Origin: Massalongia carnosa
Taxonomy: Eukaryota
Direction of reading: 5' to 3'
Length of the DNA: 64,000 nucleotides
Assembly: GCA_965645245.1 (NCBI GenBank)
Contig: OZ287068.1
Span: 992,001 to 1,056,000, forward strand
Made by a program: the position numbers and the translations under genes. The notes under the pieces were generated by a model. It worked only from the letters and a program-made list of their open reading frames with translations. It was not told where the DNA came from and did not search any database. This document shows positions 29,578 to 34,148 of this stretch, in pieces; position 1 is the stretch's first letter, and each line of letters opens with the position of its first letter.

Positions 29578-30770
29578 TTTTATTTTTCATCGAGATCCAA
29601 CATCTCTCGCTTTCTTCAACGCTTCCCAAACGACTCCATATTCTCATTCCTCATTCTTAGCATTGACTGGACGGGCATTTTTGGCGAACTCTACATGGGC
29701 TATCACTTAGGTTTTCCTGTGGCTTGGTTGCTGCGCAATCTCCCTACCAGCTATTTGGCTTTGCAGGCCCCGAGAGTTGGGTTTACTGTACAGACTCCTT
29801 TCCGATGTAAAGAAATGTATTTCGTCGTGCCTTTTTCTCTTACCTTGACCTTGTAATATGTACCCTATATACCCTTCGAAACAAAAGTCTCTGAAGTGTA
29901 TTTTCCCGACATATGGAGGAAAAGGCGATGAAATGGGGGGGAGTAAATATATAGACAGTTAAGGCAGGGTTAGCTAACAAAGAGTATGATGTAATCATTT
30001 TTCGATTTGAATCTAATTTGCCTAGTGGAGCGGGTTTGGATGTTGCCTTTTGATAGCAAGGAAGTGAGATAAGCGTTCTTTCTTCCTTTCTTTGGATCAT
30101 GAATGAGGTCCAACCGGGGAACTCCAACCCCCCACCCTTTTTTTCAGGCACAACCAAGCCAGGCATTTCTCGGTTGGTATGGCATGCATGGCATAGACAA
30201 AAACACCGACCATCACCACCAAACCCGAGGACCAGACAACTATCTACCTATTCGTTCCTTTCCGCGCCCTTTTTCCCTCCCTCCCCATCCTAACCCCCCC
30301 CCCCCTTTTTTTTTCTATTCATTCGTTCGTACGTTCATTCGTTCATCCTCCATCAAATTGGACTTCGTTTTTGATTGATGACCCTTTTTTCTGTTTTTTT
30401 TTTTTCTTTTCTTTTCTCTCTTCCCCCTCCCTTCCCTGCCTGGCCTTTTCCCTTTTGGCATTTACGGTATTTCCACCCTATATGCATGCCATGCGTTTGC
30501 TCGGGTATGTGCGGTTTTGGGGGGCGTTTGGGTCTGACTTGTTTTTTTTTTGGTTCGTTGGAGGAAGAAGGGTGGGAAGAGATTAAGAGGGGGAGAGAGA
30601 GAGAATAGGGGGGGAAAGGTAGAGAGGAGCTTTCTTTATGTTACAAGACCAGACAGGGGAGAAGGAAATTAAAGTCACAGAGGAGGGTATGGGGCTGTGT
30701 ATTTGTTTTATTGGCTTTTCTTCTTTCGATTCCACGGTCGCTATGTCCTATCAATTACCTCCTTTCCCCT

Positions 30771-31914
30771 TTACATGAAATCATCCTCGTCCCATCCGAC
30801 CATTCGCTCCTCTTTCTCGTCCACTCTCATCAACTCCTCCAGCGCATGTTCCCTTTGCCATTTCTCTTCCTTCCGTTCCCTCGCCACACGCTCTTCCTCT
30901 TTGCGCTCCTCCCGTTTCTTAGCCGTGGTTTGTGCCCGGAGCGCTGCGAGGTGGGATTCTTTGAGGGCGGGGAGGTCGGAGGTGGGAAGGATGGTGCGGG
31001 TTTTTTGGAGACGGTTGATTGTTGGGTTAAGGCGGTGGGGAAGGAGGATGTAGCGAGTCTTGATGTTTGAGGAGGGGTTTTTAGTGGTTGGGTAGGATAG
31101 AGAGGAGAAGGAAGGAAGGAAGTTAGGAAGGGACGGGAGTGGAGGGGGCCCGGAACTACCTTTCTGGGGTCGTGGAAGCCGACTTGGCCAATGGCCATGG
31201 ACGCGTTTTTGTGCAGGTTCGACCATGGGGTGTAAATTATCTTGACATTGTCTTGTTTGTTGCCTAGTTCGTTTAATGGGACTAGAGCGTAAGCGCATCT
31301 TCGATTTCGGACGTATCTGCCTTCCACGTAACAGGATGAAAAGGGGGCGGGGGTTGGTTGGAATGTAAAGGTAGGTTCTAAAAAGAAAGGTGGGAGGGGA
31401 AGGAGCAACCTTCGATAGAATTGGCCTTTGTGAGTTGCGCGCAGTCCTCAATCAATGCGGCCGGGAGTGAGTCCCATGTTTGGTCCTTTGTGAGGCGGAG
31501 GTAGACGTGGGCGCTCGAAAGGTTGTCGGCATGGAACTGAGCCGTGTCGGAGTTAATCAATCATGGTTGGTTCTTCTCATCTAATACCTCCTTGATATTT
31601 TCGCGCAATGTCCCTAGGGAGGTGATAACTCGTATAAGAGGAATTGATAATTTAACGTACCCTAGACAAAGCAGGTTCAGTATTCGGGCAAAGAGGCAGG
31701 TTGAATGCTTCGTATAGCTGCGATACCATACATCCTCTTCCCATCCGTATTTGATCAACTCTTCATCTAGAGAGCGCTTTAGTTGGAAGATGGAAGGCAG
31801 TGCCGCTAGGACGAGAATGGTAAGAGCTGTGAAAGACCCACTTTCGAATTTGTCTTTGCCGACGTAGACGATGGCTGGCGGGTCCACGACGTTGGAAGTG
31901 AAGAAGTACACCAT
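30771..31914 (-). CDS. CCDC25/DUF814 (NFACT-R domain, Jlp2-like) protein
   Basis: [53 protein letters not shown]...[29 protein letters not shown]...GQVGFHD; charged coiled-coil tail ending DEDDFM. Model includes a 1-nt exon at 31661. Confidence 0.92.
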
Positions 31915-32463
31915 TGCTAGTGAGATGGTGGACAGATAGGTATGGGTGGTTGTTGATGTGGCAGCAAGGAAGAAAGATACTTTGTAAAATTCACTAATTA
32001 GGGCTATGGAGTGTGCACAGTCTCCAATTTACTTAGCGAGCTTGTTTAGAAACACCTGACCTTGTCCTCAGGATCCAAAGTAACCTCTACGGTATGATTG
32101 AAAAAATTTCGGCAAGAAAGCATGAATTCCTAAAGGCTTTCTGTTCAATTTGCATTGGGAATTCTTTACTAATGGACGAGACAGCGAATACCTACAAAGA
32201 CCTGATGACCCAAGCGCCTTCATAGAAGTGTCACAGAAGACAATCCCACAATCTGAAGTGTCCCATGCTATCCTGATGAAGTCGTCGGAACGTGAAACAT
32301 TTGACAGCCCTTAGGCAGAGAGGTAACCGATCCTTGAAACACTAACTCTGATAAGAAATCGCCGAAACGCTGAAAATTCCTCCCTTGAATTCCATGGAGA
32401 AATATGTACAAGTATGGAGAATGGAGCGCCTCGACGTAATTGAAGGAGGCGTGCGTGGTGGGC

Positions 32464-34148
32464 TCATGGTGTGTCGGGGATCTTGTTAATCTGTTTCTTA
32501 ACAAATTCGAAGGAGGAGAAGAAGATAGTATTAATAACACAAGATCGAGCCATAGAGACTCCGAGGCCTACAACATTTGACTCGTCAGCCAAACACTTCG
32601 GACCTGCTATAGGCTGATGAAGAAGAAAAGCCTGGATAAGGGGGCAGACCTCGATACATCTTACGGTCGAAAAATCGAATGTTTGGCAAAGGAACAGGTT
32701 GACCTTTTGCCTTGGTCAAACAGTTCCGCTGATAATGGGTTTTCGCGGAGTCAATTGGGTAAATCTATACATTTATGTGTTAGCATTAATGATCTAGCGA
32801 CTTATCGTTGCTCTATAGGCGTAGTGACTTACGCATGCCCAGGAGACTAGCCCGCAGAGTCCACCTGCCACGGCCACGGAAAGAGGAGAAGTGGGAGAAG
32901 AGCTGCCTTGGAATTTTACGAGTAGCTGCTTACCACTCTCGTACGTTGTGAAATAAATAGCCGTGCCAATAGTATCCCTTACTACAACCAGAGGATCAAT
33001 ATGGAGATTTGGTGGACAATGCATAAACAGTACGGAACTTACGAAGATGGTAGTTGAAACCCGAGTATAACCCCCCAATGCCGCGATGCAATACAATGTT
33101 CTTCGCAGTCCGAAATGTACCCTTTTGTTGATAGCTACGTCGAACGGGATCGTCTACGCTAGAAGTGTTACTCTTCGCCATCAAGACCGAGATCTGTGCC
33201 GAAAGTTTTGTCAACTCAAAGGGACCTGTGGCTTGATAAGAATTGGTACGTCAGGGTTTGAGGCCTGGCATCTCACATGCAATCACCGTGATGATTGCTC
33301 CCGCGGTACCCCCAGCTGCAGCAAAGCAAGTCACAGTTCCCAAGGTGGGAACACTTCCTGGTCTGTTGACAACCACAAGTGGTTCATCCCTTCCAGTCGC
33401 TTTCCCAATTGCGCCAGAGAGTTTATACTTGGCCTTTTGGTAAATAGAGAACGAGACGGTGCGTACAAGTGTTACGCTGGCTAGAGGGGCCAAGGACCCT
33501 ATGCAATACCAAAGGTATCAGCATTTTACAATGACTTCCCATCACCAAAAAGAAGATTTCTCATCATCGCGATAAGAGTGTGGCTGTGTGTGATGAAGCG
33601 CTATTCAGGCTTGAGTTTGGATATATGATTCTCCAATTCCAGTGCTAGGGACATTTATCGGTCATAGATCATTATAATTCATAAAACGCAGCTTGATTTT
33701 GTGTTCACTCAAGTTGGATTGAACTGTTCCAACGTACCACGCCAAAAGCCTTTGAACCCTTCCGTCCTGTACGTGTGCTGAACACAGCTCGTGAAATGGT
33801 GAAAACGGTATCTATATCAAGACATCAGCCATCCATAGTGAATCAACAAAAGACGAATGACGATGCATACGCTTGCATGCGGGTCTTGACAGAATCCAAA
33901 GGATACTATGAACGGATAAGTCTGTCTGGTGGTATGTAAGTAGAATGACTACCGCTACTCACTGCGATGAATGTTGACAACACGCTGCTAGAGCCAGCAG
34001 CAATTGCGGTTCGATAGTACTTGGCCCAATGTTTTGCCTGCCGTGGGGTTGGAGCCATAGGAGAGACTCTGGACATGTCTGACTTCTCATGCCTGGGCTG
34101 CTTTGGCGGCTCATTATGGTCGTTGCGTCTTGGGTGTAGATCCGTCAT
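32464..34148 (-). CDS. Mitochondrial carrier family protein (SLC25), substrate unknown
   Basis: YPLDSVKTRMQ, PFELTKLSAQ, YPIDSAKT signatures across multiple exons; ends ...FEFVKKQINKIPDTP*. Confidence 0.88.

What the first reader, a model, noticed from the sequence alone, without database searches (positions are those of the whole stretch)
31537..31726. Apparent single-nucleotide exon (G at 31661) completing the conserved Trp of the D-V-W-F-H motif
Seen on the minus strand: ...GAG GAT GTA TG|GTATCG...(65 nt, 31726-31662)...TGTCTAG|G|GTACGT...(124 nt, 31660-31537)...GATTAAC...CAG|TTC CAT GCC. Removing the whole interval as one intron from TG| gives a frameshift. Two introns flanking a lone G restore W-F-H exactly, and both internal sites (acceptor CTAG, donor GTACGT) are consensus-quality. 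Established: DxWFH is the hallmark of NFACT-R/CCDC25 proteins, and 1-nt exons are exceedingly rare and must be spliced sequentially. Inference: an ordered or recursive two-step splicing unit where exon skipping is an on/off (NMD) switch. An overlapping donor GAT|GTATGG at 31731 could yield an in-frame isoform lacking V-W.
Basis: partly seen in the sequence, partly recalled or inferred. Interest (0 to 1): 0.78.

Follow-up and report, generated by a model that had tools for sequence, protein, structure and literature searches.

The report
One-base exon in fungal CCDC25 gene
In this lichen-type fungus a single G standing between two ordinary short introns appears to be a real exon that completes a conserved tryptophan codon of the CCDC25-like gene, a rare layout that distant fungi share and that gene-finding software usually gets wrong.

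Summary
On the minus strand, exon 2 of a CCDC25/NFACT-R gene ends in TG (31728-31727). A 65-nt GT..AG intron follows (31726-31662), then a lone G (31661), then a 124-nt GT..AG intron (31660-31537), then TTC CAT. Only this path gives a full 210-aa protein with D-V-W-F-H. It is not an assembly error: contigs of 3 runs of one organism and 1 of another show no difference where they cover it.

Seven other diverged lineages in metagenome contigs have the same TG|GT..AG|G|GT..AG|TTY layout. Their intron sequences cannot be aligned to each other. They fall in Lecanoromycetes, Chaetothyriales, Penicillium and unplaced groups. Only 73 of 226 database proteins are intact at this site. The others show artefacts that this layout predicts. 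A transcript-like contig matches the Exophiala dermatitidis annotated protein at 210 of 212 positions and differs only by having VW.

No RNA run exists for this organism, so splicing here is inferred. The proposed NMD switch has no support. One-base exons are already known in Arabidopsis, Fusarium and Coprinopsis. This scan had already noted the same CCDC25 case on other DNA.

The parts
31842..31914 (-). Exon 1 of the CCDC25-like gene. It starts at ATG 31914-31912, encodes [24 protein letters not shown] and ends with the first base of the Asn codon.
   Evidence: sequence. The N-terminus matches homologues (MVYYFTS..GKDKFEN). The full model translates cleanly.
31767..31841 (-). Intron 1 (75 nt, GTGGGT..CTCTAG).
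   Evidence: Joining exons 1 and 2 restores ..FENEELIK.. as in homologues.
31727..31766 (-). Exon 2 (40 nt). It ends ..GAG GAT GTA TG, the first two bases of the Trp codon.
31726..31731 (-). Overlapping decoy donor GAT|GTATGG, formed by the Val and Trp codons. Joined to the acceptor at 31537 it gives an in-frame product lacking V-W.
   Evidence: It has G at +5, whereas the proposed real donor GTATCG has C. This is the route taken by the 41 of 226 annotated proteins of the delta-VW class.
31662..31726 (-). Intron A (65 nt, GTATCG..TGTCTAG), with branch-point-like ACTGAAC 15 nt before the acceptor.
   Evidence: The equivalent intron is 53-62 nt in 7 other lineages.
31661..31661 (-). Single-nucleotide exon: a G that supplies the third base of the Trp codon (TG+G) of D-V-W-F-H.
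   Evidence: AG|G|GT is conserved in 11 complete metagenome loci, which form 7 lineages.
31537..31660 (-). Intron B (124 nt, GTACGT..GGCTCAG), with branch-point-like ATTAACT 16 nt before the acceptor.
   Evidence: No Rfam family matches in it.
31410..31536 (-). Exon 3 (127 nt). It starts TTC CAT and encodes [22 protein letters not shown].
   Evidence: PF05670 NFACT-R_1, 37.4 bits, E 4e-09, profile positions 37-75 of 112; 90% identical to the Cladonia borealis protein.
31264..31409 (-). Intron 3 (146 nt, GTTGCT..AACTAG).
31160..31263 (-). Exon 4 (104 nt), encoding ..[22 protein letters not shown].
   Evidence: PF05670 profile positions 78-112, 25.5 bits, which is below the cut-off on its own..
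31059..31159 (-). Intron 4 (101 nt, GTAGTT..ATCAAG).
30771..31058 (-). Exon 5 with the stop codon (30773-30771). It encodes a charged C-terminal tail ending ..WDEDDFM.
   Evidence: The C-terminus matches homologues (..DDDFM).

Best explanation
The G at 31661 is a constitutive one-nucleotide exon of the CCDC25/NFACT-R gene.

It lies between two separate U2-type GT-AG introns, one of 65 nt and one of 124 nt. Each intron has its own donor, branch-point-like motif and acceptor. The spliceosome recognises each as a short intron on its own (intron definition).

One nucleotide cannot carry two spliceosomes at once, so the two introns must be removed one after the other. Neither splice site depends on removal of the other intron, so either order is chemically possible. 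Upstream-first, during transcription, is my inference.

The product joins TG + G + TTC and restores the conserved Trp-Phe of the D-V-W-F-H strand.

The layout looks like an old, inherited gene structure rather than a device peculiar to this species. It is kept because losing the G destroys the reading frame.

Shown: the DNA layout, its conservation, and that only this path gives the conserved protein.

Inferred: that this organism's mRNA actually contains the G, and the order of splicing.
For: 1. Layout and frame. Searches show that only the two-intron path gives a 210-aa protein with DVWFH.
- Skipping the G gives a stop after 65 codons.
- Keeping either intron runs into stops.

2. The DNA is sound. 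Four runs show 0 differences where they cover the stretch.

3. Conservation. Of 80 related metagenome loci:
- 66 have an uninterrupted GAY-[GA]TN-TGG-TTY-CAY.
- 2 have a single phase-0 intron (TGG|GT..AG|TTC).
- 12 have TG|GT..AG|G|GT..AG|TTY. These are 11 complete loci plus L007, which holds only the second intron.
- The 12 form 7 lineages (near-identical loci grouped).
- Intron A is 53-62 nt in those lineages and intron B is 52-109 nt.
- AGGGT turned up in 0.3-7.4% of dinucleotide shuffles per interval.
- The introns of different lineages show no meaningful similarity; the best z was 3.9 among 28 pairs.
- Interval lengths are not multiples of three, and two related loci differ by a 2-nt indel in intron B.
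- In the 7 metagenome lineages read-through reaches a stop within 16 codons after the Trp codon.

4. Spread. A quick tree places the window in Lecanoromycetes (support 99), L011 with Cladonia, Lepraria and Puttea (98), L006, L063 and L047 with Exophiala (96), and L074 with Penicillium.

5. Annotation artefacts that fit this layout. Of 226 proteins, 73 are intact, and the other classes include:
- 41 lack VW (decoy donor joined to acceptor B).
- 17 read D[VI]C|AH (donor A joined to an acceptor inside exon 3).
- 8 end ..R|FH (AG plus G read as Arg).
- 10 read D[VI]W-V.. (the GT of donor B read as Val). The V-G-F of Penicillium cinerascens P0144 matches GTC GGT TTC at the start of intron B in the 91%-identical locus L074.

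6. Transcript-like evidence.
- P0199 is a complete 212-aa ORF on a 980-nt Logan contig. It equals the genome-annotated E. dermatitidis protein P0220 at 210 of 212 positions, and the only difference is that VW is present.
- P0126 and the Aspergillus fischeri model P0139 show the same pattern.

7. The L054 lineage has Ile (ATA) before the Trp. It therefore has no decoy GT, yet it keeps AG|G|GT.
Against: - No RNA run was listed for this organism, so no junction read supports TGG-TTC here.
- In this window, and in L022, the decoy donor GTATGG has the usual G at +5 while donor A (GTATCG) has C there. By consensus the decoy looks at least as good. Other introns of this gene also have weak donors, though (GTTGCT, GTAGTT).
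- My simple branch-point pattern found no match in both introns of L011, or in intron B of L022 and L047.
- The Exophiala and Aspergillus comparisons are at protein level. I could not see those species' genomic DNA, and I infer that P0199 comes from RNA only from its short contig and uninterrupted ORF.
- Taxon assignment of the metagenome loci rests on a 210-aa protein and a quick tree. L022, L054 and L069 are not firmly placed.
Confidence: 0.82

Rival explanations
1. The main mRNA uses the upstream donor GAT|GTATGG (31732|31731) and the acceptor at 31537. That removes one 194-nt intron and makes a protein without Val-Trp. On this reading the internal AG|G|GT is not used.
For: The splice is canonical GT-AG and in frame. 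The decoy donor has G at +5, unlike GTATCG. Many gene finders choose this route: 41 of 226 proteins.
Against: Trp is present in 66 of 66 uninterrupted loci. AG|G|GT is kept in 7 other lineages although their introns cannot be aligned, which this reading leaves unexplained. L054 has no GT at that place. P0199 carries VW where the annotated Exophiala protein lacks it. In an AlphaFold model of a relative, residues 37-41 (I-W-F-H-A) form a beta strand with block pLDDT 87, so deleting two of them should disturb the fold (inference).
Confidence: 0.07
2. The one-base exon is real and is also used as a regulated switch. Skipping the G (donor A joined to acceptor B) gives a frameshifted, NMD-prone mRNA that tunes the level of the protein.
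For: Skipping gives a stop after 65 codons. Guo and Liu (PMC4674806, Discussion read) report that an artificial 1-nt exon in potato invertase was skipped in 33% of transcripts, so some skipping is plausible.
Against: No data on isoforms or conditions exist here. Conservation of the layout is explained by frame maintenance alone. L059 and L065 do without the first intron and 66 loci do without either, so any such control is dispensable.
Confidence: 0.08
3. The locus is a frameshifted pseudogene, or carries a sequencing error, and the AG|G|GT is a coincidence.
For: A single-intron reading from TG| is out of frame. AGGGT arises in 4.6% of shuffles of this interval.
Against: Four runs agree with the window. 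All five other exons are intact and in frame, with conserved N- and C-termini. The same coincidence would have to recur in 7 other lineages.
Confidence: 0.02
4. A single non-canonical intron (TGG|TA....AG|TTC) is removed in one step.
For: It gives the same mRNA. Aligners would report this junction, because the first base of intron A is also G.
Against: L011 and L054 would then start TG rather than TA, so no common non-canonical signal exists. It does not explain the conserved internal AG|G|GT or the second branch-point-like motif.
Confidence: 0.02

Closest known systems
One-nucleotide exon of Fusarium CYP621A P450 genes (Nelson and Syed 2026, PMC12940212; abstract, Results and Discussion read)
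   Same: It is a lone G in the pentamer AGGGT, between two short fungal introns. It sits inside a conserved motif and is needed to keep the frame. It was found through out-of-phase exon borders and is conserved among orthologues.
   Different: It is a different gene, and the G is the middle base of a Gly codon. It is reported within one genus (20 orthologues, 24 sequences) and is backed by SRA reads. Here the layout spans at least two classes of Pezizomycotina, but there are no RNA reads for this organism.
Single-nucleotide exon of Arabidopsis APC11 (Guo and Liu 2015, PMC4674806; abstract and Discussion read)
   Same: It is a constitutive 1-nt exon flanked by two GT-AG introns. The authors argue for intron definition with one-after-the-other removal, which is the mechanism proposed here.
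   Different: It is a plant gene. It was shown experimentally with GFP fusions, and the identity of the base did not matter for splicing. Here the base must be G for Trp, and G also fits both splice-site consensus sequences.
One-nt exons in the long-read annotation of Coprinopsis cinerea (PMC12230235; passages read)
   Same: These are fungal gene models with 1-nt internal exons (13 exons in 13 genes) whose omission breaks the frame.
   Different: The fungus is a basidiomycete. The passages I read name no genes and say nothing about conservation across species. I did not read the supplements, so I cannot say whether CCDC25 is among the 13.
Spliceosomal twin introns (stwintrons) of Pezizomycotina (search listing and abstracts; PMC5639578 searched for terms)
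   Same: Two U2-type introns are packed at one site in filamentous ascomycetes, are removed in consecutive reactions, and are often misannotated.
   Different: In a stwintron the internal intron interrupts a splice signal of the external one, and nothing is left between them. Here both introns are complete before any splicing, and one exonic base remains.
Recursive splice sites (ratchet points), as described in the Discussion of PMC4674806; further details are recalled
   Same: A 3' splice site is followed at once by a 5' splice site, and removal is stepwise.
   Different: A ratchet point leaves no base in the mRNA and serves very long introns. Here one base is kept and both introns are short.

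Membership tests
Single-nucleotide (1-nt) internal exon | The flanking exons are out of phase by exactly one base, and no single canonical intron restores the conserved protein. | tested here: met
   Exon 2 ends TG and exon 3 starts TTC. One intron from TG| gives a frameshift, and the only in-frame single intron deletes VW.
Single-nucleotide (1-nt) internal exon | The lone base is preceded by AG and followed by GT, and each flanking intron is complete and of workable length. | tested here: met
   CTAG|G|GTACGT. The introns are 65 and 124 nt, and each has a branch-point-like motif 15-16 nt before its acceptor.
Single-nucleotide (1-nt) internal exon | The lone base and its AG/GT flanks are conserved in orthologues whose introns have otherwise diverged. 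| tested here: met
   11 complete loci in 7 lineages, plus the window. There is no intron similarity between lineages.
Single-nucleotide (1-nt) internal exon | The mature mRNA of this organism contains the base (junction reads or cDNA). | not testable with these tools
   No RNA holder was listed. There is only indirect support from other species: P0199 versus P0220 and P0126 versus P0139.
Single-nucleotide (1-nt) internal exon | The two introns are removed in separate reactions (one-intron intermediates, two lariats). | not testable with these tools
   This needs RT-PCR or lariat sequencing.
NFACT-R / CCDC25 (Pfam PF05670) | A match to the NFACT-R_1 profile above the curated cut-off. | tested here: met
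   Exon 3 alone scores 37.4 bits against a cut-off of 29.8. Exon 4 continues the profile at positions 78-112 with 25.5 bits.
NFACT-R / CCDC25 (Pfam PF05670) | The D-x-W-F-H motif. I tested only its conservation among relatives. | tested here: met
   It is present in 66 of 66 uninterrupted loci. In the window it is present only if the 1-nt exon is used.
Stwintron (spliceosomal twin intron) | An internal intron interrupts the donor, branch point or acceptor of an external intron, whose signal forms only after the first excision. | tested here: not met
   Both introns have an intact GT and AG in the unspliced sequence, and a base remains between them.
Recursive splice site (zero-length exon) | AG|GT are directly juxtaposed and no base is retained in the mRNA. 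| tested here: not met
   One G lies between AG and GT, and it is required in the product.

The most novel reading that the evidence does not exclude
The lone G is an ancient, singly originated one-base exon. It would have been kept since before Eurotiomycetes and Lecanoromycetes split, and possibly since the common ancestor of most Pezizomycotina, because annotation artefacts of the same kinds also occur in Sordariomycetes, Geoglossum and Lichina. That would make it the oldest and most widely conserved single-nucleotide exon known.

It would also act as a hub for one-base intron 'sliding'. Loss of the upstream intron gives the phase-0 intron seen in L059 and L065. Loss of the downstream intron would give a phase-2 intron.
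Probability: 0.5. Interest if true: 0.75.

Novelty: new member of a known kind. Interest (0 to 1): 0.62.

Why it matters
**Limits of exon size.** One-base exons test how small an exon can be and show that intron definition alone can place two spliceosomes, in turn, on neighbouring introns. This case sits in a conserved housekeeping-type gene and recurs in very distant fungi. It therefore offers many natural sequence variants of the same splicing problem. It also offers model organisms, such as Aspergillus, Penicillium and Exophiala, in which splicing order, skipping rate and sequence requirements could be measured.

**Annotation quality.** Two thirds of the database proteins retrieved here are wrong at this exact site (153 of 226). 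Annotation pipelines and protein-family alignments for CCDC25 in fungi are therefore systematically corrupted.

**Intron evolution.** The two-intron layout coexists with single-intron and intron-free states of the same site. This gives a concrete system for studying intron gain, intron loss and one-base shifts of intron position.

Tried and rejected
**RNA and genome data**
- RNA evidence for this organism: no RNA holder was listed. The 4 runs listed are kept as contigs and their kind is not on record. Laying them only confirmed the DNA.
- The window's own genome: none is held. I could not look for a second copy or a processed copy, or gather genome-wide intron statistics.
- A transcript contig matching any of the two-intron metagenome loci: none was found. 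At 85% identity or more over at least 60 nt, blastn gave only genomic near-duplicates and one 83-nt match of L002 to L059/L065.

**Searches that found nothing**
- Earlier notes of the scan, by sequence and by place: nothing.
- An RNA gene hidden in the introns, such as a snoRNA: no Rfam match at E up to 1 in 30600-32200.
- Origin by duplication of one intron: introns A and B of the same locus are no more alike than shuffles.
- The loose end of run X4 at 31554 (30 letters): not found elsewhere in the window with up to 3 mismatches. It remains unexplained.

**Literature**
- Among the 4 papers that hold 'CCDC25', 'intron' and 'fung' together, none concerns a fungal CCDC25 intron, judging by titles and the starts of abstracts.
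- The 30 papers listed for one-nucleotide-exon terms do not mention CCDC25 in the titles or abstract starts shown.
- PMC5639578 holds neither 'DUF814' nor 'CCDC25'.
- The search was too broad to be useful.
- These searches cover only the held library.

- The first Pfam call failed on a mis-framed exon reference. I corrected it.

**Readings rejected**
- Stwintron and zero-length recursive site (see the membership tests).
- Non-canonical TA..AG intron, pseudogene and assembly error (see the rival explanations).

Full report
**1. What is in the window**

On the minus strand there is a five-exon gene, or six-exon if the lone G is counted.
- Exon 1 is 31914-31842, followed by intron 1 (31841-31767).
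- Exon 2 is 31766-31727 and ends ..GAG GAT GTA TG.
- Next come a 65-nt GT..AG interval (31726-31662, GTATCG..TGTCTAG), one G (31661), and a 124-nt GT..AG interval (31660-31537, GTACGT..GGCTCAG).
- Exon 3 is 31536-31410 and starts TTC CAT. Intron 3 is 31409-31264.
- Exon 4 is 31263-31160 and intron 4 is 31159-31059.
- Exon 5 is 31058-30774, with the stop codon at 30773-30771.

Exon 3 alone matches Pfam NFACT-R_1 (PF05670) with 37.4 bits against a cut-off of 29.8. Exon 4 continues the same profile. The best database relatives of exon 3 are proteins of lichen-forming fungi, with Cladonia borealis at 90%.

**2. Frame logic**

I joined the exons by coordinate in a script.
- The path with two introns and the lone G gives a 210-aa protein. 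It runs MVYFF...EEDVWFHADN...DEDDFM and is colinear with its relatives.
- Removing 31726-31537 as one intron shifts the frame and gives a stop after 65 codons.
- Keeping either intron runs into stops.
- The donor GAT|GTATGG joined to the acceptor at 31537 is in frame but deletes Val-Trp.

**3. Not an assembly artefact**

Contigs of three runs of one coded organism (word depths 445, 150, 896) span 31300-32000 without any difference. A run of a second coded organism from another study covers 31300-31550 and 31554-31893, also without difference. The best holders may be the source of the window, so they exclude a consensus error rather than give independent support.

No RNA run was listed, so expression and splicing in this organism could not be examined.

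**4. Relatives**

I aligned 22 full-length relatives (A1) and used the alignment to scan the metagenome contigs. This returned 80 loci. At the Trp codon:
- 66 loci are uninterrupted, and all read D-[VI]-W-F-H.
- 2 loci (L059, L065) have one 59-nt phase-0 intron, TGG|GTATGG..CAG|TTC.
- 12 loci have the window's layout, TG|GT..AG|G|GT..AG|TTY. L007 is cut and shows only the second intron.

After merging near-identical contigs these 12 make 7 lineages:

| Lineage | Intron A (nt) | Intron B (nt) |
|---|---|---|
| L006 with L063/L064 | 54 | 60-62 |
| L011 with L007 | 53 | 109 |
| L022 | 54 | 72 |
| L047 | 53 | 57 |
| L054 | 56 | 57 |
| L069 = L070 | 57 | 52 |
| L074 = L075 | 62 | 62 |
| Window | 65 | 124 |

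Further points on these loci:
- AGGGT appears in only 0.3-7.4% of dinucleotide-preserving shuffles of each interval. This control is conservative.
- L047 has a second AGGGT, but it would leave a 19-nt intron.
- Introns of different lineages are not detectably similar; the best z was 3.9 among 28 pairs. Introns A and B of one locus are not similar to each other either.
- Interval lengths are not multiples of three. L006 and L063 differ by a 2-nt indel in intron B.
- In the 7 metagenome lineages read-through reaches a stop within 16 codons after the Trp codon. In the window itself the read-through frame stays open for 60 codons before a stop.
- A simple branch-point pattern was found near the 3' end of most sub-introns. 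It was not found in either intron of L011, or in intron B of L022 and L047.

So the only things conserved between TG and TTY are the splice signals and the lone G.

**5. Who carries it**

I used nearest named proteins and a quick maximum-likelihood tree. The tree had 74 rows: 28 hand-picked loci out of 81 (80 plus the window) and 46 hand-picked named proteins. The site itself was cut out of every row.
- The window sits inside Lecanoromycetes (support 99).
- L011 groups with Cladonia, Lepraria and Puttea (98).
- L006, L063 and L047 group with Exophiala, order Chaetothyriales (96; lineage).
- L074 groups with Penicillium and is 91% identical to P. cinerascens.
- L069 groups weakly with Dothideomycetes.
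- L022 and L054 are unplaced.

The layout is therefore present in at least two classes and three orders. The intron-free loci are mostly close to Capnodiales-type Dothideomycetes, to Leotiomycetes, or are only 45-63% identical to any named fungal protein.

**6. Annotation artefacts as a footprint**

In the 226 proteins from two searches, only 73 are intact at the site. The other classes are what gene finders would do when they cannot model a 1-nt exon:
- 41 lack VW (decoy donor joined to acceptor B).
- 17 read D[VI]C|AH (true donor A joined to an AG inside exon 3).
- 8 end ..R|FH (the AG of acceptor A plus the lone G read as an Arg codon, then intron B spliced).
- 10 read D[VI]W-V.. (intron A spliced, then the GT of donor B read as Val).
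- 11 read through donor A.
- 48 lack exon 2 or start inside intron B.
- The last 18 fall in three small classes.

The D[VI]W-V class could be checked against DNA. P. cinerascens P0144 reads DVW-VGF|FH, and the 91%-identical locus L074 has G|GTC GGT TTC at that place.

A third search listed only proteins of 222 aa or more, so it is biased to wrong models. It shows the same classes in Sordariomycetes, Geoglossum, Lichina and others. I could not see the genomic DNA of any named species, so for them the layout is inferred.

**7. Transcript-like evidence from other species**

P0199 is a complete 212-aa ORF on a 980-nt Logan contig. It matches the genome-annotated Exophiala dermatitidis protein P0220 (210 aa) at 210 of 212 aligned positions. 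The two unmatched positions are the gap where P0199 has V-W. An uninterrupted ORF on so short a contig, in a gene that the annotation splits at this very place, is best explained as spliced RNA. That is my inference.

P0126 and the Aspergillus fischeri model P0139 show the same pattern.

**8. Why the W matters**

W is present in all 66 uninterrupted loci. In an AlphaFold model of a relative (P0010 with A1; mean pLDDT 82), residues 37-41 (I-W-F-H-A) form a beta strand. Deleting two of them would probably disturb the fold. The model is of a relative, not of the window's own protein.

**9. Mechanism**

Each intron is complete before any splicing. This is therefore not a stwintron, and it is not a zero-length recursive site, because one base stays in the mRNA.

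The most likely mechanism is intron definition on each short intron, with the two removed one after the other. This is what Guo and Liu argued for Arabidopsis APC11. The G fits position +1 after an acceptor and position -1 before a donor, as Nelson and Syed note for the Fusarium AGGGT. Upstream-first removal during transcription is my guess, and nothing here tests it.

One caution applies to this window and to L022. The decoy donor GTATGG has the usual G at +5 and donor A (GTATCG) does not. The other donors of this gene are also weak, though (GTTGCT, GTAGTT).

**10. What is known**

- One-base exons have been shown in Arabidopsis APC11.
- They have been shown in Fusarium CYP621A. The authors call this the second case ever and the first in a fungus.
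- A long-read annotation of Coprinopsis lists 13 of them.
- I found no paper in the held library that links CCDC25 with a fungal intron or micro-exon.
- The scan's own notes show that other agents reached the same reading for CCDC25 in three other genomes. I saw these only after my own analysis, and they are not independent evidence.

**11. Verdict**

This is a real and conserved gene structure, a new member of a known and very rare kind. It is of moderate to high interest because of its phylogenetic breadth and its effect on annotation. The NMD-switch idea is unsupported.

Noticed in passing
window 31551-31554 (run X4): In the run of coded organism B, one low-depth contig (depth 3.7) follows the window from 31756 down to 31554. 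It then continues for 50 letters unlike the window. A second contig ends at 31550, and three bases are uncovered. The 30-letter consensus is not found elsewhere in the window. The break lies in the branch-point region of intron B. It could be a strain variant or an assembly-graph fork.
   Followed up: partly
window 31713-31732 and L022: The 14 bases GATGTATGGTATCG around donor A are identical in the window (Lecanoromycetes) and in the unplaced locus L022. The rest of intron A differs between them.
   Followed up: no
window 31561-32028, minus strand: The frame that runs from upstream of the start codon through exon 1 and intron 1, and from exon 2 on through intron A, the G and most of intron B, stays open for 155 codons. 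A gene finder could therefore be tempted to retain these introns. In the 7 metagenome lineages the read-through stops within 16 codons after the Trp codon.
   Followed up: partly
window 32470-33520, minus strand: Upstream of the CCDC25 gene, on the same strand, several ORF fragments end at about 32466 (..FEFVKKQINKIPDTP). They look like the exons of another intron-rich gene. I did not identify it.
   Followed up: no
window 30100-30700: Downstream of the gene lies a pyrimidine/purine-rich, low-complexity stretch. It gives long open frames rich in P, S, K and E on both strands. It is probably UTR or intergenic DNA.
   Followed up: no
L059 and L065: Two related metagenome loci have a single 59-nt phase-0 intron (TGG|GTATGG..CAG|TTC) at the same site. 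This is the state expected if the upstream intron of the pair had been lost, or had never been gained. They group with the intron-free, transcript-like contig L002.
   Followed up: partly
proteins P0153, P0156: The Penicillium camemberti and P. roqueforti models read DVW-Y-FH, with one extra Tyr. None of the artefact routes I worked out explains this. It may reflect a non-canonical junction placed by an aligner.
   Followed up: no
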